From: Eledone cirrhosa
Taxonomy: Eukaryota
Direction: 5' to 3'
NCBI GenBank assembly: GCA_964016885.1
Contig: OZ024744.1
Location: forward strand, 49,042,001-49,106,000
Length of the DNA: 64,000 nucleotides
A program made the translations under genes and the position numbers. Position 1 is the first letter of the stretch, and each line of letters starts with the position of its first letter. Below are positions 12,024-57,737 of this stretch, piece by piece. The notes beneath the pieces are model-generated. The model saw only the letters and a list, made by a program, of their open reading frames with translations. It did not search any database and was not told where the DNA came from.

Positions 12024-12267
12024 TTCATAATGATGATAATACTTATACACTGCCACTAAACATATATCTATATAAACCAACCAAACAGTGAGTGTGTTCT
12101 GTTATTAATTCTGGCAATATTATTACACAGATATGACCCTCCCCAAGTATATCTATATATATATATATAGAGAGAGAGACTCACACATCCTTTATTATAT
12201 ACATATATCAACATACACGTAAATAGGCACATCCATTGATACATGCATATAAACATACATACATACA

Positions 12268-12680: not shown

Positions 12681-12954
12681 CACAGTCAACACGAAGCACT
12701 TCTACAGGGTGTATACAGCAACAACTAAAGCAAACTCTCTTTACACATACCATGTTTAAGATTTTAACTAAACTAGGGGCCTGTTCATTTTCAATTAATC
12801 AAGGTTTCTTGTACCATTAAAATAATTTTAACAGCTCCTTTTGCCCTAAGGCAATGCAATATTACTGTTGGGAAAATACTTGCCTGACTATCCATGTGTA
12901 TATATGTGTGTGTGTATATGTTTGTTTTCATGTTTATATATATATATATATATA

Positions 12955-13237
12955 TAAGAGACGTAAAATAAGAAAATTATAAAATTAACTTACTTACTAA
13001 AATATCACTTCCAACTAATTAGTTTCTGGAATGGAGTAAATATATTTTCCGAAGAATAATATAGAGAAGCATTCCGTCATCAGGGAAGTCTATTCTCATG
13101 TAAGTTTCCAGGCAAAGCGAGGACACTGGAAACTTATTAAAAAATAATTCAGTGGATAGGAAATAGCGAAGCGTGGACTGAAAGTGATATTTTAGTAAGT
13201 AAGTTAATTTTATAATTTTCTTATTTTACGTCTCTTA
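12955..13237 (-). mobile_element. Non-autonomous PLE-like element with 58-bp inverted termini and a hammerhead ribozyme
   Basis: Arms 12955-13012 and 13180-13237 are inverted copies (1 mismatch), both abutting TA repeats. Confidence 0.85.
13007..13089 (-). ncRNA. Type I hammerhead ribozyme (intact core)
   Basis: ACUUCC-CUGAUGA-CGGAAUG...CAUUCCA-GAAAC-UAAUUA-GUU|GGAAGU; perfect 6-bp stem I and palindromic stem III ACUAAUUAGU. Confidence 0.9.
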
Positions 13238-13354
13238 TATTATTGTTCTGCAACCCCATGCATTGAACCACACTGTTATTAAGACAAAACCTGTATATTT
13301 GCTAGCATTGATATGCATCTGTATGTATATATATGTTACTAGATATGTATTCTT

Positions 13355-13424
<70 letters not shown>

Positions 13425-13529
13425 ATAATAATAAATTTGAAGACTAAAATCCAAAGAGGGCTTGATAAGGATAAATATAAATCAAATATATAAATCAAAT
13501 ATATAAGAACCGTAGAGCAAATATTTATT

Positions 13530-13646
13530 AAAATAACAGATTAAAGTTTAAGCAAAGAATCGCTGCTTTCACAGATTGATTTTTTTTAGTTTCAGAAGAT
13601 CCCGTTAAGGGTGAAAGCAGCGATTCTTTGCTTAAACTTTAATCTG

Positions 13647-13653
<7 letters not shown>
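13530..13653. repeat. Perfect 43-bp inverted repeat with 38-bp spacer
   Basis: AAAATAACAG...GCTTTCAC at 13530-13572 and its exact reverse complement at 13611-13653; related unfolded copy at 60700-60790. Confidence 0.92.
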
Positions 13654-21751: not shown

Positions 21752-24700
21752 TCATCCACTTCTCATGACTGGAGATGAAACAGGTGGCTTGCTGGGACAG
21801 CAATCTGTTGGAGTTTCTGGTGTAGAGACTGTAACAGTATCCATGATGGCTTTTTTTAATCTGTCCACGCTGACAGAATTCTGTTTACCATCTAGATCGA
21901 GAATAAAATGTTTCGGATATTTTTTTAGAACACGATAAGGGCCAGAATATGGAGGTCGAAGATGAGCTGAGATGGTGTCGTTTCGAACGAAAACGTGTGT
22001 CCAATCTTTAATGTCTGAAGGTACATGTGTGGCCGTGTTCTGTTGACGGGTGCTTGCAGGAGCAAGGTGAGACATATATTGTCGAAGAGTGTGTACGTAT
22101 GATCCTGGGTCTGGAACGTCCTGAGGAGAAATGGGAGCAACCAAATGACCAGGTAGAACCAGGGTGGTGCTGTACACTAATTCTGCAGGTGTGTGTCCGA
22201 ATTCCTCCTTAACGGTGGATCGAATGCCCAGAAGGATGAGTGGCAGGCATTCAAACCAGTGGGTCTTCTCTGGATATTCTTTTATTGCAGCTTTCAATTG
22301 ACGATACCATTAGCTTGCGGGTGATAAGCTGTCGTGCGATTGTGTTTACATCCTAACAGGCGAGTCAGTTCCCTGAAGAGGTGGGAGTCAAATTGGCGTC
22401 CTCTGTCCATTGTTATCTTCGCTGTGGCGCCATAACGTGATACCTAGTGTAAAACCAAAGTTTTAGCGACTGTTTCCGCTGAGGTATCACTTATGGGAAA
22501 AGCCTCAGGCCAACGAGAAAAACAATCTATGCAGGTGAGCAAGTGTGTGCAGTTCTGTGATGGTGGTAGAGGTCCGACGATGTCGATATGCACATGATGA
22601 AAACGTGCATCAGGTTGCGCGAATGTGCCGAGTGGAGTTTTGATGTGTCTGTGGACTTTGGCTTTCTGGCAGGCAATGCAGCTCCTGGACCAGTCGCGCA
22701 CGTCCTTGTTAATGTTAGTCCACACAAAACCAGCAGAGATGTGTTTCTGTGTAGCTCGGATTCCCGGGTGAGACAAGCAGTGTAAAGCAGAAAAAAACTT
22801 GTCGACGATGCATCTGTGGTACGTACGGTCGTTCATGACCGGTAGAAAGGTCGCACCAAATTTGTCCCGGAGAAGAAGGAATGGGAACTTGCTGAAACTT
22901 GAGGGATGGCGAATCTTGGAGCTTGATAAACTCTTCGTCAGTCTCTTGGTCAGCTGCGATCTGTTGAAGGTCGATGCCTGAATGCACATGTATTGCGTTC
23001 AGCTGGATTCGGGACAGGGCGTCGGCTGCTACGTTGTCTGATCCCTTGATATGCCGAATATCAGTTGAATATTGGGAGACAAAATCCAGGTGGCGGAGTT
23101 CTCTCGGTGAATGTCGATCAGGTTTGGTACGGAACGCATAAACTAGTGGTTTATGGTCCGTGTAGATCACGAAATCCGATCCTTCGAGCATGTGACGAAA
23201 ATGTTTAACCGAAAGGTAGGTTGCCAAGAGTTCGCGGCCAAACGTACTGTATTTGGTGTCTGCAGGTTGCAACCGCTTAGAAAAGAAGGATAAGGGTTGC
23301 CAAACGCCGTCGACATGTTGTAAAACGCCTCCAACCCCCGTGTCTGATGCGTCCACTAGCAGCGAAAGATTAGCGCCAGATCTGGGGAAAACGAGCATGG
23401 AAGCGTTTGCCAACATTTCCTTCAGGCGGTTAAAAGATGTTAATTTTTCCTCGTTCAGAGTAATCTCTTCGTTTTTGCGAGTCCGGTTGCGAAGAAGGTC
23501 CGTGAGGAGTCTGGCTGCGTCAGCACAATGAGGGATGAAACGCTTATAAAAATTCACCAAACCGAGGAATTCACGCAGTTCCGAAGTGATGTAGGTGCGG
23601 GAAAATTGCGGATAGCTTCTACTTTCTCGGGAAGTGGACGAATGCCATCTTTATCAATGATGTGTCCGAGAAAGGACAGTGAAGGAACGCCGAGAAGGCA
23701 CTTGCTGGGGTTGATGATGATACCGTACTCGGCCAAACGTTGGAAAAGAAGATCTAAGTGCTTCTCGTGTTCTTGCTCGGAAGTACTTGCTACTAGCACA
23801 CCGTCGATATACGCGTATACAAAGGGTAGATCACGTAACACGGTGTCAATAAACCGTGGAAAGTTTGTGCAGCGTTGCGCAGACCGAACGGAATTCGCAG
23901 GAATTCAAATAAACCGAAAGGTGTCGTGATTGCGGTCTTCGGAATATCTGCAGGCTCCATAGGTATCTGGTTATATGCACGCACCAAATCTACCTTGGAA
24001 AAGATGCGTGCGCCTTGCAGAGAGGCAGAAAAGTCGTGTAAGTGAGGTACAGGGTAATTATCGGGTACTGTGGAATTGTTAAGTGCACGATAATCCCCAC
24101 ATGGTCTCCAATCATTCTCGGTTTTTTAGGAACAAGGTGTAGGGGTGCAGACCAATTGCTGGAGGAAGGGCGAATGATTCCGAGGTCCAGCATGTGTTGA
24201 AACTCCTGTTTGGCGATTCTCAATCAGTCTGGAGGCAGTCTCCTTGGTCGGGCAGCTGTGGATGGTCTTCTTGTCTCGATGTGATGTGTGACACTATGCC
24301 TAATAGGTCCATCCTTAAATACCGGGCGAGTGATGTCTGGGTATTTCTTGAGAATGCCGTTGTAACGCGAAGGCTCTGACTGGCAAATTACAGGGCTCAC
24401 TGTGGATTTCGTGGTAAATATACCTCTCACAGTGAGGATTGTGGTGGTGTCAATAAGCCTCCAGTTCTTCATGTCTACCAGAAGGTTGAAGTGGTGTAGA
24501 AAATCGGCTCCTAAGATAGGGGTCGGCAGGTCTGCCACGACGAACACCCATTGAATACGACGCCTCAGGCCTAAATTGAGGGTCAGTGATTTCTCCCCGA
24601 AAGTCGGAATTGACGATCGGTTCACTGCCTGCAGAAAGGACGGTGTTGGATGTCTTTTGCCCGAGATTAGTGAAACAGGAATAACACTAACCTGGGCTCC

Positions 24701-25071
24701 TGTATCCACGAGGTAACGGATGCCTGTCGCTTGGTCGTTGATAAAAAAATAGACGACTTTTCTTCTCAGTACCAGGGGTGAACGACGTCGCTAGGCCCTG
24801 GGTGGTATTCTGGAAAGAGCACGGGACCTTGAACTTAGATGCCTGCGCGCCGAATTCTGCGTGATACCAGCAGAAGTTGCCAGACACACGATTTTAACTG
24901 GGACTTCTGGATCTTCGACTGTGAAAAGGCCTGGATCGACTGTTGCTGCGTCGCCGGTGTGTTTGAAAGGTCAGGTTCTCTACTTGATTTGAGAGGGCTT
25001 TAATTTGACCAGCCGCTCTCTGATCATAGCTCGCAGCTCTGAAATCTCGGCCCCTGTCGTTGGTTGTGACA
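21752..25071 (-). pseudogene. gag-pol remnant (Gag C-terminus, protease, RT, RNase H, integrase)
   Basis: CWYHAEFGAQASKFKVPC; DTGAQVS; [11 protein letters not shown]; YIDG (from YIDD); VDASDTGVG..ELLA..TDHKPL; HPG..C..C; HIDIVGPL; GPY motif; multiple frameshifts. Confidence 0.92.
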
Positions 25072-25579: not shown

Positions 25580-26561
25580 AAAATACTAAATATATACATA
25601 TATGTATTGGTTAAATTAATAAATTAATAAATTGGAAGTTATGTTAGAAGTGAAGAGAATACGATAGGATATAATGGAAGAGGTGAAATATATTTAGGGA
25701 AAGAGAATGAAAGAGAGAAATGTTAGGAGGTTATGATGTTGATTCATTGATTAGTTGATTTATTGACAGTTAATAATAATAATGGGTTATTATAATAGAC
25801 TCAGGTGGTACAGTTTGAATTATGGAATTGTTGGGTTGAATCAAGTTGGTTTGAAATTAGCGAATTTAGTAGCTGCTTTATGCCTACAGAAAATTGACCG
25901 TTCTATTTTGCTGTTAAGCAGCATTTTGTCATATTTAAAAATATGGAGCAACTCCATATTACAAAGTCCGCAGTGGGACAATCCATCTCTGACATTCCCT
26001 TGACAATTTCGACCAGCTAATCCCGTATTACTGATTTGTATCTTTAAGCTGACAGATTTTATTGGCGAGTGTTGTTGTGTTCATAAGTCTGCGGTTCTTT
26101 ATAGAGTATCTGTGGACGTACCATCTTTTTTTTAACTCCCCGGATGTACTAGAACCTATGTAGTGCCATGCTAAGTTGCCTGAATTTATAGTACACAGGT
26201 ACACTATATTTGACTCCAGGCATCTATTTTGTAGTGGGCACTTATCCGGTAAGTGACAGTTACATTTTGAAGCCTTCCTGTGAGCCGGTTCATCGATGCG
26301 GTTTTGTATGTTGTTATGTATGGGCTGAGATTTGGGTTTGTTGATGTTTCGTGGTGATGTGTTTTGACGTGTGTGTGGTTGTGATGTTGTTATGTGTTTG
26401 TGATTTGGTGTTATGGTGTTTTTTGTAGTTTATTTTCATTAGAGATTCTTTTATAGTTAATTTTATGTATGTGTGATTCTATGTTGGTTGTAGTAGAGTA
26501 AGATAGTTTGATAGTATTTCTATTAAAGATTTTATGGTATTTGTGAAGTTTAGGGAAGTGC
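25580..26561 (-). mobile_element. Upstream partial tandem copy (pLTR) of the Naiad-type PLE
   Basis: Direct repeat of 16982-17901; retains KCNCHLPDKCPLQNRCLESNIVYLC..YIGSST..KKRWYVH (GIY-YIG with CxC..C..C motif). Confidence 0.9.
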
Positions 26562-36469: not shown

Positions 36470-39031
36470 AGATAGATTTTTATCTTCATCAAAAGACGTA
36501 ATCGATGGACGGTTGTAAACACAAAAGCCTTCCCTGGTGAGGAATGCACCTCCCAACATAACTTAGTTATCAGCGACCTCACTGTCAAAACTAGACGAAC
36601 TTGGAAACAGAAGGCAACCTGGAGAAGAAAGATCTGGAAGCTGAAAGACCCCTCAGCCAGTAACAGATTTAAAGATATTTTACTTGACGCCTATGACAGT
36701 AAAGAAGAACAGATACAGACATTCAATGTAGAAGAGCACTGGGAGTTCCTAAAAAATAACTTACTAAAGCGACGGACGAGATATGTGGTTGGAGCAAGAC
36801 CACAAGCAGGAGGAGAGTGACTTGGTGGTTGAATAATAAGGTAGATGAGGCAGTTAAGGCTACGTGACAGGCATGGAAAGAACGGGGAAGCAGGATACAT
36901 TACATAGAAACCAGGAGGGAAGCTAGGCGACAAGTATACTTAGCTAGAAGGGAAGCGGAGGATAGAAAATTCAAGCATGTTTTGGAGGTGCTCAAGATTG
37001 TGAGGCAGTGTGTCAGAGAGAATTGTGATGTCATTGGAGAGAAGTGTATCCGGAATGATAATGGTGAGCTTGCTCTCACAAGTGCTGAGAAGAAAGATAT
37101 GTGGAAGAGCCATTATGAAAGATTACTAAATGAGGAGAATGCATGGGAAAAAGAGACCCTACACCAAGTGGACCCTATAGAGGGGCCAGCAGTACAAGTC
37201 AGCAGTGCATAGTAAGTAAGGCAATCAAAGATATGAAAACGAGGAAGGCAACCGGTCCATCGGGTATAGCTGCCGAGATGCTGAAGGCATCTGGGTTGGT
37301 AGGTCACACCATAACCACATGTATTGTTAACCAGGTAATACTAGAGGGTGTCATACCAAAGGATTGGTGCAGCAGCATCATTGTCAACTGCTACAAGGGT
37401 AAAGATAGAGGAAACTATAGAGGTATAAAGCTTATGGACCAGGTCATGAAAGTAACAGAAAGAGTTATAGCACAGTTGATTAAGGACCAGGTGAAACTAG
37501 ATGAGATGCAATTTGGGTTTGTACCAGGAAAAGGCACCACTGATGCCCTCTTCCTTGTGAGGCAGTTACAGGAAAAGTACCTAGCTAAAAGTAAGCCGCT
37601 CAACCTGACAATCGTCGATCTGGAAAAAGCCTTCAACAGAGTCCCCTGTGCTATAATCTGGTGGGCTCTCAGAAAACTAGGCTTGTGAAGGCTGTACAAG
37701 CCATGTATAGAGGAGCAGTCAGCAAAGTTAGGATTAGCAATGACTATAGCGAGGAATTTAGCATACAGGTCGGTGTCCACCAGGGCTCTGTTCTTAGCCC
37801 TCTCCTGTTCATTATAGTTTTGCAGGCAATAACGGGGCAGTTTAAAACCAGATGCCCATGGGAACTCTTATATGCGGATGATCTCACACTTATAGCTGAA
37901 TCTATGGTAGAACTAGAGAAGAAATTCCAAATATGGAAACAGGGACTAGAAAGAAAGGGTCTCAAAGTCAACCTGACAAAGACTAAGGTCCTCGTAAGTA
38001 GATGAGAAAACAGAACCCAGATCCCCTCAGGGAAATGGCCTTGCTCAGTATGTAGGAAAGGTGTAGGTAGGAACTCCATCCTCTGACCCAAATGCAAACA
38101 ATGGGTACACAAGAGATGTAGTGGGATCTCAAACTCTGTAGAAACAGTAGATAGCTACTAGGTGACCGAATTAGCAGCAGAGGTGGGTGTTCAGAAAGTA
38201 CAATAATTAGGGTAAGAACGGGATGGAAGAAGTTCAGGGAACAACTGCCACTGCTAGCTGCAAAAGGCTTCTCCCTCAAAATGAAAAGCAGACTATGATG
38301 CGTGTATCCGAACAGCAATGTTACATGGTAGTGAGACCTGGGCGCTGAAGGTGGAAGACTTACGTAGATTAGAGAGAAACGAAGCCTGCATGCTTCGATG
38401 GATGTGTAATAGTAATATACGTGAACGACAAAGCATAAATGATTTGAGAGAGAGCCTGAGCATAAGAGGAATCAAATGTTGTGTGCAGGAGAGGAGGTTG
38501 TGTTGGTATGGATATGTGATGTGTATGAAGGATGACAGCTGCATAAAAAGGTGCAGAGCACTAGAAGTCGATAGAAGCCACGGAGTGGGGAGACCCAAGA
38601 AGACCTGGGATGAGGTGATAAAAGCCGACCTTACCCAATTGCACCTCTCAAGGGTGATGACACATGACTGTGACCTCTGGCGTCACACAGCAATACAGAA
38701 GACCCGACTCCCCACGGGTACAAGCCAAAGCTGAAGCATATAGACAATATGCCTCCACCCCCTCACACTGAAAAGTGGTCGAGGAGGGGCCTCGCCAAAA
38801 AAGCACCCAGTCCACACTGTAAAGTGGACGTGTAGCCGCCACGGATAAAAAGCACCCATCACTCACTGTAAATGAGGTTGGTGTTAGGAAGGGCATTCAG
38901 CTGTAGAAATCAAGGCAGAATCAATTCCTGTATGAGCAAAGCATGGTCAGCCGACTGGATACTGCCCAGAACAGGACAACTCACCTAACTCATGCTAGTG
39001 TGAAAGAACGGTCGTAAAACAGTGATGATGA

Positions 39032-39109: not shown

Positions 39110-42100
39110 ATCATCATCATCAACATCATCGTTTAATGTCCATCTTCCATGCTAGCATGGGTTTGGACGGGAATTTTCCCACTTGAGGCTAGATTGATTG
39201 TCTTGTTCATATAGGACTATCTGGCCCGTTTTCTACGGCTGGATGCCCTTCTTAACACCAACCACGTTTACAGTGTGGACTGGGAGGTTTTTACCGTGTT
39301 ACCTACACGGCCACATTACAGCGTGAACTGTGTGTTTTTTTGTTGTAACACCTACACGACCTCATTTGTTTCGGACTGGATGTTGTGGTACCAACTTAAC
39401 TTTACATCGTAGTGGGACGGGGGTGTATTTTTGTTAAGAGGTGCCTACTGACTGTAGGTTTCGCTTTGTACTTAGGCAAGGCGGGTCTTCTGTATTACTG
39501 TGAAGCGCCAAAGATCTCAGTTGAGTGACATTGTCTTGGAAAGATGTAAATGTGTGAGGTCGGAATTTATCAAGTCTTCCCAGATTTTAATGGGTCTGCC
39601 TACTCCGTGGCTACCGTCTATTTTTATCGCCCTGCACTTTTTTATACAGCTGTCGTCTTTCATGTGCATCACGTGACCATACCAACGTAGTCTTCTCTCG
39701 AGTAAACAACATCTGATCCCTCTTATTCCTAATTTCTCCCTTAGTTCATTTATGCTTTGCCGTTCCCGTATATTACTATTACACATCCAGCGGAGCATGC
39801 AAGCTTCTTTCCTCTCCAGTCCGTGCAGATCCTCTGCACACAATGCCAAAGTCTCACTGCCATGTAACATCGCTGTTCGTATGCAGGCATCATACAGCCT
39901 GCCTTTCATTTTTAGAGAGAAACCTTTAGCGGCCAATAGTGGTATAAGCTCTCTGAACTTTTTCCATCCCGTTCTGACTCTAGCTACAGTACTTTCAGAG
40001 CACCCTCCACCACTGCTGATTTTGTCACCCAGGTAACAGAAGGTGTCCACTATTTCTATAGAACCATCTGTGAAATGGAATGAGCTAGTATTCTGTGGGC
40101 ACTTGCTGCTACTTATTGCACCTGAGCACCGGCCACATATAAAATCTATATTCTTAGTTAGCTTACCTGTGATCCTACTACATCTTTTATGCAGCCATAC
40201 TTTGCATTTGGGACATAAAATGGAGTTTCTGCCTACTCCTTTCCTACACACTGAGCATGGTCATTTCCCGGAAGGGACCGGTGTCCTATTCTCCTTCCTA
40301 CATATTAGAACTTTAGTCTTAGACAGGTTAATTTTAAGGCCTTTTGATTCTAGGCCATGCTTCCATGTTTGGAATTTCTTCTCTAGTTCAGCCATTGATT
40401 CAGCTATAAGTGTTCGATCATCTGCGTATAGGAGTTCCCATGGGCAGCCGGTCTTGAACTCTTCTGTTATAGCCTGAAGGGCAATAATAAATAGTAGGGG
40501 GCTAAGAACGGAACTCTGATGAACACCAACTTTTACGCTAAACTCTTGACTATATTCGTTGTTAATTCTAACCTTGCTGACTGTTTCTTTATACATGGCA
40601 TGTATAGCTCTCACAAGCCATTCATCAACACCTAGTTTTCTGAGAGCCCACCAGATAATGGAGCGGGGGACTCTGTCAAAGGCTTTCTCCAAGTCAACAA
40701 AAGTTAAGTATAGGGGTTTACTTTTAGCTAGGTACTTCTCCTGTAGTTGTCATACAATGAAAAGAGCGTCTGTGGTACTTTTACCTGACACAAACCCGAA
40801 CTGCATTTCATCTAGATCAATTCGCTCTCTGATTAGTTGCGCTATTACTTTTTCTGTGATCTTCATGACCTGGTCGATTAATTTAATGCCTCTATAGTTT
40901 CCCCTATCTAGGGCATCTCCTTTACCCTTATAGTAGTTAATGATGATGCTGCTATGCCAGTCCTTCGGAACAACCCCATTCTGTATGACTTGGTTTACTA
41001 TCCGGGTGACCATAGTGTGTCCCACCGTTCCAGATGCTTTCAGCATTTCAGCAACTATTTCCGAAGGCCCAGCCGCCTTGCCTGTCTTCATATTTTTGAT
41101 TGCCTTACTTATTATACTACCTTCAACTTGCACTGCTGGTCCCTCTATTGGATCAATGTGGGGAGCACTTTCAAGCTACATTCTTATCAGTGTCAGTGAT
41201 GGCAAGTACACCATCATCATTAAGGACACACTTCTCCCCGACAATATCACGGTTTTCCTTGACACATTGCCTAGCAATCCTGAACACCTCACGTTGTAGA
41301 ACATGCTTGAACTTTCTTTCCTCTGCTTCCCTTCTTGCGAAGTACACTTGATTCCTAGCTTCCCTTCTTGCGAAGTACACTTGTCTCCTAGCTTCCCTCC
41401 TGGCCACTTGATAGTCTTCTCTACTTCCCCCATCACGCCATACTTTCCACGCCTGCTTTTTGGCCTTGATTGACTCCTCCACCTTACTGTTCCACCACCA
41501 AGTTACTCTCTTCCTGCCTATAGGTCTGCTCCAGCCACAGATTTCATCTGTCGCCTTCAGCAAGTTAGCTTTCAGGAATTCCCACTGTTCCTCTATATTG
41601 TACGACTCTAATTGCTCTTCCTTTCTATCAAAAGCATCAAGTAATATGCTTTTAAATTTATTACTGGCTGTAGGGTCCTTTAGCTTCCATATTTTTCTCC
41701 TGAGGATAGTCCTCCTCTGTTGTCGAGTACATCTCATCCTGACTATGAGGTCGCTAATTATGAGTCTATGTTGGGAGGTGCATTCTTCATGGGGGAGGGA
41801 TTTAGTGTTTACAACAGACACTCTGTCACGTCTTCTGGTAAGGATATAATCTATCTGGCTGGTATGTTCCCCGGATCTATAGGTGATCAAGTGATTGTCT
41901 CGTTTTTTGAAGTTAGTGATACAAATAGTTAGGTTATTTGCGTCACAGAATTCCAGGATTCTGGAGCCTTCCTCATTTCTAGTACCAAACCCATAGCCTC
42001 CATGGATTTCGTCATAGCCGTCACAATGTTGTCAAATGTGACCATTTAGGTCGCCAGCGATAATTATGTAGTCACTGTCGGTTATTTGGGAGGTAGTGAG

Positions 42101-53459: not shown

Positions 53460-56400
53460 TTATAACACCTCGTTGTAAACAATGTTCCTTGTTTTCCCTC
53501 GTCGTGCAAATGCAAAAAGCCTCTCCCTGCTGCCAACTCTAGTGCACCCAACGTACAATTGTCCGTGGGAGAAACAGGGCTCCTCCAGTAGAAGTCCGGC
53601 AACAGAAAGAATCTGACCCTGGGACTTGTTAATGGACATTGCAAAACTGACCTGAAGCGGGAATTGCAGTCTTCTGAAGGTAAACGGAATTTCGGCTCCC
53701 GAGGGAGTAAGAGAAATTCTCGGAATGAAGACATCATCGCCTTTTCCGCATCCAGAGAGGATAACATGGTCCATCATTTTCTTTACAGCCAGGCGTGTTC
53801 CGTTGCACAGCCTCGGTGGCTCCAAATTCCCCAGCAACATAACAGGAGTCCCTACTTTAAGGCGTAGCATGAGGGGCGGAAGTCCCGGAGGCTGTAAGGA
53901 GTTTAGGAATTCTGGTGGAAAGTTCACCACTTCATTTAGATCGGGCATCATGTCAACAGACTTGTAATTGCGAAGAGCACCAGGAAGGGAATCCAGTAGC
54001 AGGTTGTTGAAATTGTTAACAGTGGCGTTTTTTGGAGCAAGCACTGCTCTTTCACACAACCATGCGTGGTCCTGGAAATGGTGTTGCAAATCCGGAAACA
54101 CTTTTTCTTTGAGCTCTGCCGCAGAATTAACAGAAGTCGCAAATGGCCACACTTCCTGTTCGCCTTCAGCGTCAAGAGGCATGTTGCCGTCGCCAAGCTT
54201 CAGAATGTCCCGTGCAAAGTGGCGGACGTTTGGTCTCCGTACAATTGAGCCCTCATGTTGGTTGTAAGAGTCAGTTTCCTGACATGGCGCCATAGGGGAG
54301 ATGACTTCAGACATGCTTGGACCTCGTCAGATCGTGTACCATTGGGAATTACAGGGAGGGTCTACCTGAAGTCACCTGAAAGCAGAAGCGTAACACCTCC
54401 CATCGGATCCTGACAGCCTCTGATATCCTGGAGGGTTGTGTCAAGAGCTCCTTTGTGCGCATGGTGCACTCATTCCAGACAATGAGTTGACACCGTTTCA
54501 GGACTTGGCCCTGGTCGGAATTCCTGCTGATGCTGCAAGTGGGTGTTTCTAACTTGAGGAACAATTTAAAAGTGGAGTGTGTAGTCCTGCTATTGGGCAG
54601 CAAAGTTGCAGCAATCCCCGAAGAGGCCACAGCAACCGCAATGTCATTGTGCATCCTGACTTTTGCAAGTAGAAGCCTTGTTAAAAATGTTTTGCCCGTC
54701 CCTCCAGGAGCATCCAGAAAGAAAATACCTCCTTTTCTTTGGCGCACATGGTCAGCAACAATGGTGTAAACTCGACGTTGATCCGGAAGAAGTTGTGGTT
54801 CAGTTTCATGAATGCACTTGGCAAGGTCATCGAGGTCGTAGGATGTTTCCCGAAGAAGAGCTGTAGGAAGTATGTTTGACCCGGTACGGAGCGCTTGGGG
54901 TAGACGATATGACGGCAAATAATTTCCACCGAGTGATGCAACTCTGTCCTCAATGTCAATCAAAGCACAATTGAAGACCTCATCGCTGGTTCGTTCCATT
55001 TGAGGGTATTGCAGTTGTGCCCGGCGTTTGTAGTCCTCGGATAAGTCTCCTTTGAACTGTAGCCACAAAGACATAGGATTGCTTAGTTCGCAAGTTTGCA
55101 GCATTACTGCAAATAGAGCTCGTAAACGCATAGACGATTGTGATGCAACGGCTTCGAACAAAGTCGCTTCCCACTGCGCACCGTCTTCCAGCAGGCCATG
55201 CTTGAAGCAAGCTTCTCGGTAAGTGCTGCACACGCAGCCGTCAAAAGTTCGGAGGTCGTGAACAGATTGGGGTCCTCTTACCTCATGCAGCAGAAGGCAA
55301 AGGTAGAAGCACTCGTGCTGGTTTCGGTGCACAGTGTAAACCCTCCCAAGGCAACTGTCAAACTTTATGCCGGGATGTCCTTCAACAGGTTGACCTGCCC
55401 TTCTGACCCATTGTTGCTTATTCCATGTGTAGTAGGACGGCACCTGGGGGTAAAGGAGAGTCTGTGAAAAAGAGTCGGTCCGACACAGTTTCAAAAATCC
55501 AGTGAGGGTTGTTTCTCATGGGTCCTCCACCATTTGCGCAGCATTAGTGTTGGTGAAGTAGACACTTTGACCATTCTGAAGGTGAACCGCAAGCTGTACA
55601 ATAGCAGGGTGCCTTTGGTGTATTGGGAAGCCAAAAATCCGCCAGAAACCCTCGTTGCTACTGATGTAACAGCCAACTTGGTATTGCGAGACCTTATCAT
55701 GGCTGTAGACCGAACATAGCAGCGTCTGAACCCTTATCCACGTAGTTGAAGATCTACTTGATGGACTTGACGGAGCTACAGAATTCCACATTGATGTGGG
55801 CACCGAAGGTCTTCGAAAGAAGTGGGCAGTAGTGCACTATCCATCGGTTGTCGACCTCTTGCTGTCCAACTGTCGCTGTGAAACCACCGTCTCTGGGTTG
55901 CCGTCGTCTGTACATTGGGTATCCGTCCACGCCAGTCTGGGTTTCTTGAAGGAACTTTCGGGGAAACCTTTTGCTGCAGACATTGTTGTTCAGGCAAGGT
56001 GAGCTCAAATTGAAACCACGCCCGCATGGACCATGGACCATGTTTGCTTTCAATATTTCGTAGAGGTCTTTGTCCGCAGACGGATCAGGAAGCTCAGCGG
56101 AGATGACCTTGTCAATGTCGTTTGGAGATATTCTTGCGGACATCCAGATGAAGATATGGGCATGCGGTAGGCCCCTCTTCTGCCATTCAACGGTGTACAT
56201 GTCGCATATAACTGGTCCGAAGACTTGTCCTCTCTTGATGAGCTCCATCAGGTTGATAAGCTTCAGCCGAAAGACTCTGGACAGGAGGTCATGCCTGTCT
56301 TTGGCATGTTGCCGTTGGAACAGTTCTGCAGCAATCTCCTTCCACTTAGGATTGCAAGTAAAAGTGACAAACAGGTCGGGCCTGCCGTAATGCCGAACGT

Positions 56401-57737
56401 AAGTCATGGCATCTTGCGTCCTCTCGTGCATGTAGTGCGGACTTCCGGTGAAAGTGGATGGAAGGATGCAGAGTTTTCCTACGCTGGCTGGTGCTGCATT
56501 ATTGGTGAGGGCATCTCCGAGGTGGATGTAGCTCTCGGACCGCAATTGCCTCTTGTGTGACTGGATGAAGCACAACCTTTCCGATTCCATTTTCGCACAC
56601 ATGTTGATGGTGAATTGCTGAAAGAGGTCTCTTGATTGGTGCAAGTGGTTGAATGAGTTGCGGTGTACCATGAAGGGGTAAGAGTAGAAATTCATGCAGG
56701 AAACAGTTTTATTGGTTGAATGCCTAGGATGTTCGAGATTATCCCGAGGAATACCAAATCAGTAGCCGTCCTCTCCTTTCACAAGCAGCAGTGGATATTG
56801 AAGAGTGTCATAAGACCTGTGCGTTTCGCTTATACATTGGAGGGTGTTGTCTCGTCGCCGTAGAACAATGTCTCGAGGATTGTGCTGATAACTGAAGTTG
56901 CACACAGGTAAATTGTAGCGGCCCGAATGTTCGCCAGAAGGTCTTTTCGAGGCATCAATTACGACATTGAAATTTGATGCAGGAGCTGCTTCCAATGCGT
57001 ACTTGAAGCTGATGACATAGCTGTTGTATGTGTGCAAAATGTCTTGTAGGTTTCTGATAATGTCAAGGTTGGTGCCAGATGAAATAGAGTTCCGCATGGC
57101 AGCCTGTTCATTGACATTTCCGATGAAGCAAATTTGGAGGAACTGGGGATCTTCGTTGGTAGTAAGTTGGAGCGGTCCGATTCTATGATATACCTGCCCT
57201 TGCACTTTAAATGTGGGCATAAATCCACCCTCTCTGACAACATTAGCCCGAAAGATGTCATCTGGAAGGCGCAATTGTACTTCCGGATATTACTGAGAAA
57301 GTGCTTTGAATCGGCAGTTGAGCCTGAAAGGAGGATCTTCAGCGGCTGCGGTGGGTCCTCCAGTGGGTGTAATTTCACCTTCCCGTTTGAGCAGCACATA
57401 CCAGGTGGTTCCCCCGACCACTTTTTGGCATTGCAAAATGAGCACCTTTTTGACATACTTCCAAGTGTCATGTTTGAGTGGCTGTCGTTATCAAAGATGG
57501 GGCTGTCTCGAAAGCTTTGAAGGCCCATTGTGAGCTGCACGGGTTTGAAACACCTTGCCTAAGGGCTCTTCGTTGGACATTACTCTCTAGATGGATATCG
57601 CAGTCTTGCGCCGTCTTGGAAATTCGAGCAGCAGCAGTGTTCGCAGCATCCGTTGCCCGACATCTAATGCGCTGTTCTTCGTTCTCTGCAGCCCGTGAAG
57701 CAGAAGTTGACGCGGCATCAGAGGTTCGGCGACGTTT
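53460..57737 (-). pseudogene. Helitron RepHel (Zn finger, HUH Rep, Pif1 helicase), frameshifted
   Basis: CSFC..CCSNGK; FVTFTCNPKW; VEWQKRGLPHAH; motif 3 SIK*IFNYVDKG (first catalytic Tyr now a stop); DAPGGTGKT; INKSQGQ; HGQLYVGCTRV. Confidence 0.93.

What the first reader, a model, noticed from the sequence alone, without database searches (positions are those of the whole stretch)
12955..13237. 283-bp ribozyme mini-element whose inverted repeat starts exactly at the predicted self-cleavage site
Seen: an intact minus-strand hammerhead (13007-13089) predicted to cut GUU|GGAAGUGAUAUUUU. The 58 nt downstream of the cut (13012 to 12955) are duplicated in inverted orientation at 13180-13237, starting at that nucleotide, and both arms end in TA repeats. 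Known: PLEs carry hammerheads in pLTRs and form inverted, truncated structures. Inference: this looks like a MITE but is probably a retro-product in which the cleavage-defined RNA end was copied onto the other flank, i.e. a non-coding ribozyme-processed element mobilised by a PLE RT/GIY-YIG into (TA)n.
Basis: partly seen in the sequence, partly recalled or inferred. Interest (0 to 1): 0.75.

Follow-up and report, generated by a model that had tools for sequence, protein, structure and literature searches.

The report
Two-armed Penelope-type hammerhead retrozyme copy
This is one shortened copy of a 523-base non-coding repeat with a predicted self-cutting RNA motif, pasted many hundreds of times into TA microsatellites as back-to-back arms that end at two fixed sites, likely by a Penelope-type retrotransposon enzyme; that this copy's inverted arm starts near the predicted cut site is a coincidence, since the family's arms do not favour that spot.

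Summary
The hammerhead and the inverted repeat are real; the boundaries and the central inference are not. The insertion spans 12955-13360 (406 bp): the right arm runs on through a 123-nt 'tail' before reaching (TA)n. It is a truncated copy of a 523-nt ORF-less tandem unit (1,540 exact hits of a 29-mer). The inverted arm matches exactly from 2-3 nt past the predicted cut, and the family shows no pile-up there: 7 arms start at the cut genome-wide versus 7 and 9 at control positions; 81 of 88 sampled arms read through it. What holds: a covarying type I hammerhead with palindromic helix III; 277 of 289 arm ends in TA runs; and 92 of 93 two-armed insertions pair one end at site A with one at site B, 120-123 nt further on. 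Best reading: a non-autonomous Penelope-like element (animal retrozyme) copied from both nicked target strands, one reverse transcriptase starting at each site, on a longer-than-unit or circular RNA. Inverted arm, one-sided tail, two start sites and retrozymes are published; the helper was not found. This scan reported the same pattern for other families, one in this genome.

The parts
12935..12954 (.). left (TA)n tract, target site (target duplication not discernible)
12955..13182 (-). long arm: unit positions 296-523, 3' end at site A (12955), 5'-truncated at 13182; 98.7% identical to natural copy L026
13007..13089 (-). type I hammerhead ribozyme motif with palindromic helix III (CUAAUUAG), extra unpaired C and A flanking the G10.1-C11.1 pair, long helix II
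   Evidence: activity untested
13012..13013 (-). predicted self-cleavage site GUU|GGAAG (unit 465/466)
   Evidence: predicted from the hammerhead consensus
13182..13183 (.). head-to-head junction of the two 5'-truncated arms, 1-nt microhomology (A)
13183..13360 (+). inverted arm: unit 469-523 plus 1-123, 3' end at site B (about 13360)
13238..13360 (+).
13361..13421 (.). right (TA)n tract

Best explanation
This is a 5'-truncated, two-armed copy of a 523-nt non-coding tandem repeat carrying a conserved hammerhead motif, likely a non-autonomous Penelope-like element (animal non-LTR retrozyme) inserted by a borrowed PLE reverse transcriptase/GIY-YIG endonuclease. Shown: unit, copy number, (TA)n targeting, scattered 5' ends, arms longer than one unit, and two fixed 3' ends (A at unit 521-523, B at 120-123) that are paired one-and-one in two-armed insertions. 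Inferred: the enzyme nicks both strands of (TA)n; each nick primes reverse transcription on the element RNA, one at A and one at B; both cDNAs run back along an uncleaved multimeric or circular RNA, stop at variable points and are joined head-to-head, often at a short microhomology. The hammerhead would act earlier, probably as a dimer through its palindromic helix III, to cut unit-length RNA from read-through transcripts (possibly then circularised); it does not set the arm boundary. A Hydra-clade PLE is the likeliest helper, but none was linked by sequence.
For: Unit 523 nt in head-to-tail copies, window copy = arms of 228 and 178 nt; no ORF (longest Met-started frame 28 aa); 1,540 exact 29-mer hits, reversed control 0. 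Two-armed insertions with both ends assignable: 92 A+B, 1 B+B, 0 A+A of 93 (P 2e-26 against independent choice); same ends in subfamilies 69-99% identical. 277 of 289 A/B ends abut a TA run of 8 nt or more. 34 of 82 arms in the position-ordered sample exceed one unit, longest 2,546 nt; 81 of 88 read through the cut. Both arms come from one source: 56 of 56 testable insertions have arms closer to each other than to the median other copy (mean 2.4% vs 8.0%), equal to the 2.4% between tandem passes. 25 of 84 simple two-armed insertions have arms that each hold sequence absent from the other; the window copy is of this kind, so neither arm was copied from the other. Hammerhead covariation: helix II second pair GC 98/AU 44/UA 12/CG 8 of 169. 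Literature: a purified PLE protein nicks and extends both target strands, starts at two internal RNA sites whose interval is the tail, and uses uncleaved RNA (PMC11167929); inverted 5'-truncated copy with a tail on one end is the PLE hallmark (PMC8557442; PMC3846280). The genome holds PLE ORFs with GIY-YIG domains and a Hydra-type family with similar geometry (cut-to-A about 61 nt, tail about 163 nt).
Against: No autonomous element shares sequence with the unit: none among 50 GIY-YIG loci of 6 families, none in 29 loci of one Hydra family, and patterns for the same helix III in another context found only unit relatives or chance-level hits. The tail (120-123 nt) is far longer than the published 30-40 bp. 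PMC11167929 reports no strand difference in start site in bulk, which neither shows nor excludes per-molecule pairing. 59 of 84 two-armed insertions are also compatible with fold-back of one cDNA. 25 of 118 two-armed insertions had at least one end that could not be assigned to A or B. The monomer's predicted ground state is not the active hammerhead fold (-15.9 vs -12.1 kcal/mol); cleavage and circular RNA are untested. PMC3846280 proposes a different route (self-priming on an antisense template).
Confidence: 0.8

Rival explanations
1. One reading: the hammerhead-cleaved RNA 5' end defines where the inverted arm stops, giving a fixed 283-bp mini-element.
For: In this copy the B arm (178 nt) is within 2-3 nt of the 181 nt expected from run-off on a cleaved linear monomer; one fold-back insertion (L111) may have both arms ending at 466/467 if a subfamily variant is allowed.
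Against: 7 arms start at the cut genome-wide versus 7 at unit 462 and 9 at 470 (the last pattern's reversed control was 16, so it is noisy); 0 of 96 mapped ends on the cut base; 2 of 89 within 2 nt in the ordered sample; 81 of 88 arms cross the site; only 7 of the 41 top rows share the 283-bp layout and their short arms vary from 43 to 78 nt.
Confidence: 0.04
2. One cDNA is made from the RNA and the inverted arm arises by fold-back or self-priming (including the antisense-template model of PMC3846280), the tail being left by endonuclease resolution.
For: 59 of 84 simple two-armed insertions have one arm contained in the other; some junctions are near-perfect hairpins; would also give one tailed and one untailed end.
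Against: 25 of 84 have mutually non-contained arms, as does the window copy; either arm can be the longer one; 45 of the 59 compatible cases may reflect my selection for short arms in one sample.
Confidence: 0.1
3. The unit is the pseudo-LTR of an autonomous PLE that I failed to find, and copies are just its truncated 3' ends.
For: The genome has thousands of GIY-YIG candidates (10,595 first-look, 150 scored); only a few families were inspected.
Against: Arms run through up to four or more perfect 523-nt units without any ORF; no shared upstream sequence in the 58 ordered loci; 4 of 30 loci of diverged relatives had a PLE protein hit, to unrelated families away from the unit; the one in-frame-looking neighbour (L245) is an independent Hydra end.
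Confidence: 0.05
4. MITE or other DNA transposon with 58-62-bp terminal inverted repeats.
For: Terminal inverted repeat in TA context in this one copy.
Against: Arm lengths vary continuously, one end carries a tail, many copies are one-armed or tandem, 5' ends are truncated.
Confidence: 0.01

Closest known systems
Metazoan non-LTR retrozymes (Cervera & de la Pena 2020, PMC7229834, passages seen; Li, Clavereau & Pollet, bioRxiv 10.64898/2026.07.22.740005, part 1 of 5 and passages seen)
   Same: Non-coding tandem unit with one type I hammerhead, low GC, unit length within the reported 51-972 bp, co-occurring with PLEs that are proposed to mobilise them.
   Different: Here insertions are dispersed, 5'-truncated, mostly two-armed head-to-head with fixed A/B ends in (TA)n; the word 'inverted' occurs 0 times in the main text of the first paper and once (a reference title) in the second. 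Circular RNA and cleavage were shown for those families, not here; no pLTR homology to a helper was found here.
Insertion units of endonuclease-positive Penelope-like elements (Craig et al. 2021, PMC8557442, passages, section 11, supplement search; Arkhipova et al. 2013, PMC3846280, passages)
   Same: Partial tandems, adjacent inverted 5'-truncated copy, tail on one end, hammerhead in the terminal repeat, (TA)n targeting (Hydra and Naiad clades).
   Different: No ORF; tail 120-123 nt instead of 30-40 bp; the one-tail rule is nearly absolute here (92 of 93) where the papers say 'often' or 'optionally'.
Poseidon element of Anolis (PAc) in vitro (Frangieh et al. 2024, PMC11167929, main text read, parts 1-2 of 4)
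   Same: Two internal reverse-transcription start sites that bound the tail; both target strands nicked and extended; hammerhead cleavage not needed for insertion and no RNA ends at the cut.
   Different: PAc is autonomous, its start sites lie close together inside the ORF, and pairing of sites within single insertions was not reported in the text I read.
PLE minimal hammerheads (Cervera & de la Pena 2014, PMC4209133, parts 1-2 of 4 read)
   Same: Type I, extra nucleotide 5' of helix II, conserved G10.1-C11.1, palindromic helix III suited to dimer cleavage, long helix II.
   Different: A second extra nucleotide (A) sits between C11.1 and G12 in the family (C/A opposition in 158 of 169 copies).
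Twin priming of L1 (recalled, not read here)
   Same: Two target-strand primers on element RNA give an inverted insertion joined at microhomology.
   Different: In L1 the two segments do not overlap; here both arms start at fixed neighbouring sites and overlap fully, and can exceed one unit.

Membership tests
Metazoan non-LTR retrozyme | Non-coding unit occurring in head-to-tail tandem copies | tested here: met
   523-nt unit, tandems up to 2,546 nt, longest Met-started frame 28 aa
Metazoan non-LTR retrozyme | Type I hammerhead in each unit, structurally conserved | tested here: met
   Core near-invariant, compensatory pairs in helices I and II in 169 distinct copies; Rfam models miss it
Metazoan non-LTR retrozyme | Self-cleavage of the RNA | not testable with these tools
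   Needs in vitro assay; predicted dimer-dependent (palindrome duplex -11.4 kcal/mol)
Metazoan non-LTR retrozyme | Expressed as linear and circular unit-length RNA | not testable with these tools
   No RNA run was available to test it (see Tried and rejected)
Non-autonomous PLE derivative | PLE insertion anatomy: 5' truncation, partial tandem, inverted copy, tail on one end | tested here: met
Non-autonomous PLE derivative | Microsatellite/AT-rich targeting | tested here: met
   277 of 289 3' ends abut TA runs
Non-autonomous PLE derivative | Sequence homology to the pLTR of an autonomous PLE in the same genome | tested here: inconclusive
   None found in 6 GIY-YIG families and one Hydra family or by helix III patterns; search not exhaustive
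Autonomous PLE | ORF with RT and GIY-YIG endonuclease | tested here: not met
   No ORF in the unit
MITE | Fixed terminal inverted repeats and uniform length | tested here: not met
   Arm lengths scattered, tail on one side, one-armed and tandem copies

The most novel reading that the evidence does not exclude
A dimeric Penelope-type RT/endonuclease holds one 523-nt hammerhead-made RNA circle and primes it from both strands of a nicked (TA)n at two dedicated sites 120 nt apart, one subunit per site, so that each insertion is a pair of rolling-circle cDNAs joined head-to-head; the 92-of-93 A+B rule is the genomic footprint of that obligate asymmetry and explains the long-puzzling one-sided PLE tail.
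Probability: 0.4. Interest if true: 0.7.

Novelty: new member of a known kind. Interest (0 to 1): 0.4.

Why it matters
The striking claim (a ribozyme cut fixing the inverted repeat) fails, so as filed the finding is ordinary PLE-type debris. The family is still a clean natural read-out of PLE mechanism: no ORF, a long tail that makes the two start sites easy to tell apart, more than a thousand young copies, and a near-absolute rule that one arm ends at each site. That turns two open questions (how PLE inverted arms and one-sided tails arise; whether retrozymes are copied from RNA circles) into direct tests with the published in vitro system. It also warns that such copies are easily mis-annotated as MITEs.

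Tried and rejected
Rfam: nothing at gathering score in the window, no hammerhead at E<=10 around the element. RNA evidence: no RNA holder listed; laying contigs of runs X1, X2 and X4 showed the family in X1 and X2 (1,597 and 1,485 records) and 2 records in X4, no piece spanning the insertion, so nothing on expression or on this junction. Helper search: Pfam accession PF26215 (recalled) is not in the library; PF01541 gave 150 scored of 10,595 candidates, 50 loci examined, 47 with a GIY-YIG frame in 6 families (five with a CX2-5CxxC linker, Neptune-like; one without), none similar to the unit; unit-like matches in L207 and L228 are separate insertions; an 11-nt match of family F6 to the A end is not that family's end (tail about 36 nt); an apparent in-frame fusion of a Hydra endonuclease to the hammerhead in L245 is an independent insertion behind a deleted Hydra copy. 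Short hidden second arms in one-armed copies: only 5 of 63, always of the opposite type. A cluster of 5' ends at unit 422-429 (8 of 89) may be an alignment artefact of a subfamily indel at 419-421 and was not pursued. Junction overlap of 1 nt or more in 54 of 84 insertions has no null model and is inflated by BLAST extension. Literature: 'Penelope' with 'twin priming', 'inverted', 'tail' gave 1 paper, a human TE review seen as listing only; other searches. The paper on dimeric PLE hammerhead variants (Lunse et al. 2017) is recalled only; it was not in the listing. Supplements of the bioRxiv preprint were not seen and might describe inverted retrozyme copies.

Full report
Observation. The minus strand at 13007-13089 carries all parts of a type I hammerhead: helix I ACUUCC/GGAAGU, CUGAUGA, helix II GGAAUG/CAUUCC, GAAA, a palindromic CUAAUUAG in place of helix III, and GUU with the predicted cut between 13013 and 13012. 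An inverted repeat joins 12952-13013 and 13179-13240 (62 nt, 98%). Rfam does not report the motif and the free fold pairs the core away (z -1.35; -15.9 kcal/mol against -12.1 for the constrained active form), as expected for minimal hammerheads that work as dimers (PMC4209133, parts 1-2 read); the helix III palindrome forms a -11.4 kcal/mol duplex with itself. Across 169 distinct copies the helices covary (helix II second pair GC 98, AU 44, UA 12, CG 8; fifth pair UA 127, GC 25; helix I fourth pair UA 114, CG 31), G10.1-C11.1 holds in 161, and a C/A opposition flanks it in 158. The motif is therefore under structural selection; its activity is untested.

The element is larger than reported. 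A search of the window's genome (3.0 Gb) gave 2,878 first-look candidates, 40 scored; 7 top rows share the 283-bp layout and 34 match only its first 228-229 bases. These continue into a 523-nt unit repeated head-to-tail (natural copy L026:1501-2023). On that unit the window insertion is a 228-nt arm (12955-13182, minus strand, unit 296-523) joined head-to-head to a 178-nt arm (13183-13360, plus strand, unit 469-523 plus 1-123), with (TA)n outside both. The unit has no ORF (longest Met-started frame 28 aa). A 29-mer just 3' of the cut has 1,540 exact hits (reversed control 0); related subfamilies reach down to about 69% identity with the same unit length and ends.

The arm does not start at the cut. 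The window reads GGACTGAA-AGTG, the unit's own continuation is GGACTGAA-TTCC and the arm's source is TTGG-AAGTG: the exact match begins 2-3 nt past the cut. Three tests ask whether the family prefers the cut. (a) Position-ordered sample: 98 of the first 100 places listed were fetched; of 89 arm 5' ends, 2 lie within 2 nt of the cut, and 81 of 88 arms read through it. (b) A pattern that selects arms truncated within unit 446-481 found 488; the 100 listed were fetched and mapped; 4 were substitutions or indels rather than truncations; of 96 ends 0 fall on 466, 8 on 464-468, 6 on 459-463, 8 on 454-458 and 29 on 469-473 (the excess at 473-475 lies in an AT-rich self-complementary run where chance matches to TA shift the call). 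One fold-back insertion (L111) could end at 466/467 under a subfamily variant. (c) Genome-wide counts with two forced mismatches upstream: 7 arms start at 466, 7 at 462 and 9 at 470 (the third pattern is short and its reversed control gave 16). There is no pile-up. For this one copy run-off from a cleaved RNA end cannot be excluded, but the family rate at the cut is the background rate.

What is fixed are the outer ends. Among 216 distinct insertions from five samples, 118 are two-armed and head-to-head; in 93 both 3' ends could be assigned: 92 pair an end at site A (unit 521-523) with an end at site B (120-123), 1 is B+B, none A+A; 25 had at least one unassigned end, mostly near the expected partner (P 2e-26 against independent choice). 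One-armed copies in the ordered sample end at A and B equally (11 and 11). 277 of 289 assigned ends abut a TA run of 8 nt or more. 34 of 82 arms exceed one unit, the longest 2,546 nt. In all 56 of the 84 simple two-armed insertions that had enough overlap, the arms are closer to each other (mean 2.4%) than to the median other copy (8.0%), the same as between tandem passes of one arm (2.4%), so both arms were made together from one source. In 25 of 84 each arm holds sequence that the other lacks; the window copy is such a case (long arm without tail, tailed arm shorter than the long arm). Fold-back of a single cDNA cannot make these; the other 59 are compatible with either route.

Mechanism. 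Published PLE anatomy is a partial tandem with an adjacent inverted 5'-truncated copy and a 30-40-bp tail often on one end only (PMC8557442, passages; PMC3846280, passages). A purified PLE protein nicks and extends both target strands, is predicted to be a dimer, starts reverse transcription at two internal RNA sites whose interval is the tail, and does not need hammerhead cleavage (PMC11167929, main text). I infer that a PLE enzyme nicks both strands of (TA)n and primes one cDNA at A and one at B on an uncleaved multimeric or circular RNA, and that the two cDNAs are joined at their growing ends. The hammerhead would only mature the RNA. A circle is suggested, not shown, by multi-unit arms, the absence of a 5' pile-up at the cut and the persistence of a lineage whose every copy is truncated; circles are shown for other animal retrozymes (PMC7229834, passages).

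Helper. The genome holds many PLEs: 47 of 50 GIY-YIG loci fall into 6 families, with frames up to 1,096 aa, inserting into TA runs with tails of about 36-45 nt where measurable. None resembles the unit. One such family (2,015 first-look candidates) has a hammerhead with a palindromic helix III, about 61 nt from cut to A and a tail of about 163 nt, close to the unit's 58 and 120-123 nt, and Hydra elements are described as TA-targeting with hammerheads (PMC8557442 section 11). That makes a Hydra-clade helper the best guess, without sequence proof.

Comparison and novelty. It works like a PLE insertion and meets the sequence criteria of an animal non-LTR retrozyme (PMC7229834; bioRxiv 10.64898/2026.07.22.740005, part 1 of 5 and passages); cleavage, circular RNA and helper homology are untested or inconclusive. 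It is not a MITE and not an autonomous PLE. I did not find the strict A+B pairing or a twin-priming account of PLE arms in the papers read or in searches; supplements of the preprint were not seen. Earlier notes of this scan describe the same two-armed pattern for a 310-nt family in this genome and for families in other genomes; this sequence itself had no look-alike among them. Those notes are unchecked and were consulted after my counts were made.

Verdict. Real hammerhead, real young family, wrong boundaries and wrong central inference. New member of a known kind with a useful mechanistic footprint: interest 0.4.

Noticed in passing
window 13432-13652: A second, unrelated head-to-head insertion next door in (TA)n: inverted arms plus a one-sided extension of about 89 nt; 2,335 first-look candidates, copies 83-90% identical with variable arm lengths.
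   Followed up: partly
window 12040-12150: Resembles by eye the 3' end of a GIY-YIG PLE family seen in L105 and L036, ending in (TA)n.
   Followed up: no
window 26031-26429 (-): Fragment of a Hydra-type PLE endonuclease (CxCx5C linker, YIG motif).
   Followed up: partly
window 53460-57558 (-): Broken Helitron: Helitron_like_N, PIF1 and Pif1 2B domains.
   Followed up: no
window 21752-24790 (-): Fragments of a Gypsy-like pol (protease, RNase H, integrase).
   Followed up: no
window 39517-42031 (-) and 37134-37688 (+): LINE-like fragments: PHD finger, endonuclease, RT.
   Followed up: no
L200:25, L229, L238:2358, L221:6700 and 7159, L230:7568 and 8079: Other hammerhead families whose helix II is also flanked by a 1x1 mismatch (A/A or U/U); the paired copies in L221 and L230 are 459 and 511 nt apart, possibly further retrozyme units.
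   Followed up: no
L220 (ORF 6622-3809, -) and L332:2340-2385: Autonomous Neptune-like and Hydra-like families carry hammerheads with altered cores (UUGAAAA, UUGAGAA), the U3-A8 type of variant.
   Followed up: partly
L137 (G000:C1:278477626-278477685): A 3-nt duplication (GTT) exactly at the predicted cut in one copy, which could mark an imprecise ligation; single case.
   Followed up: no
unit 422-429 (window about 13050-13057): 8 of 89 arm 5' ends cluster at the cUUCGg hairpin in loop II; may be RT pausing or an alignment artefact.
   Followed up: no
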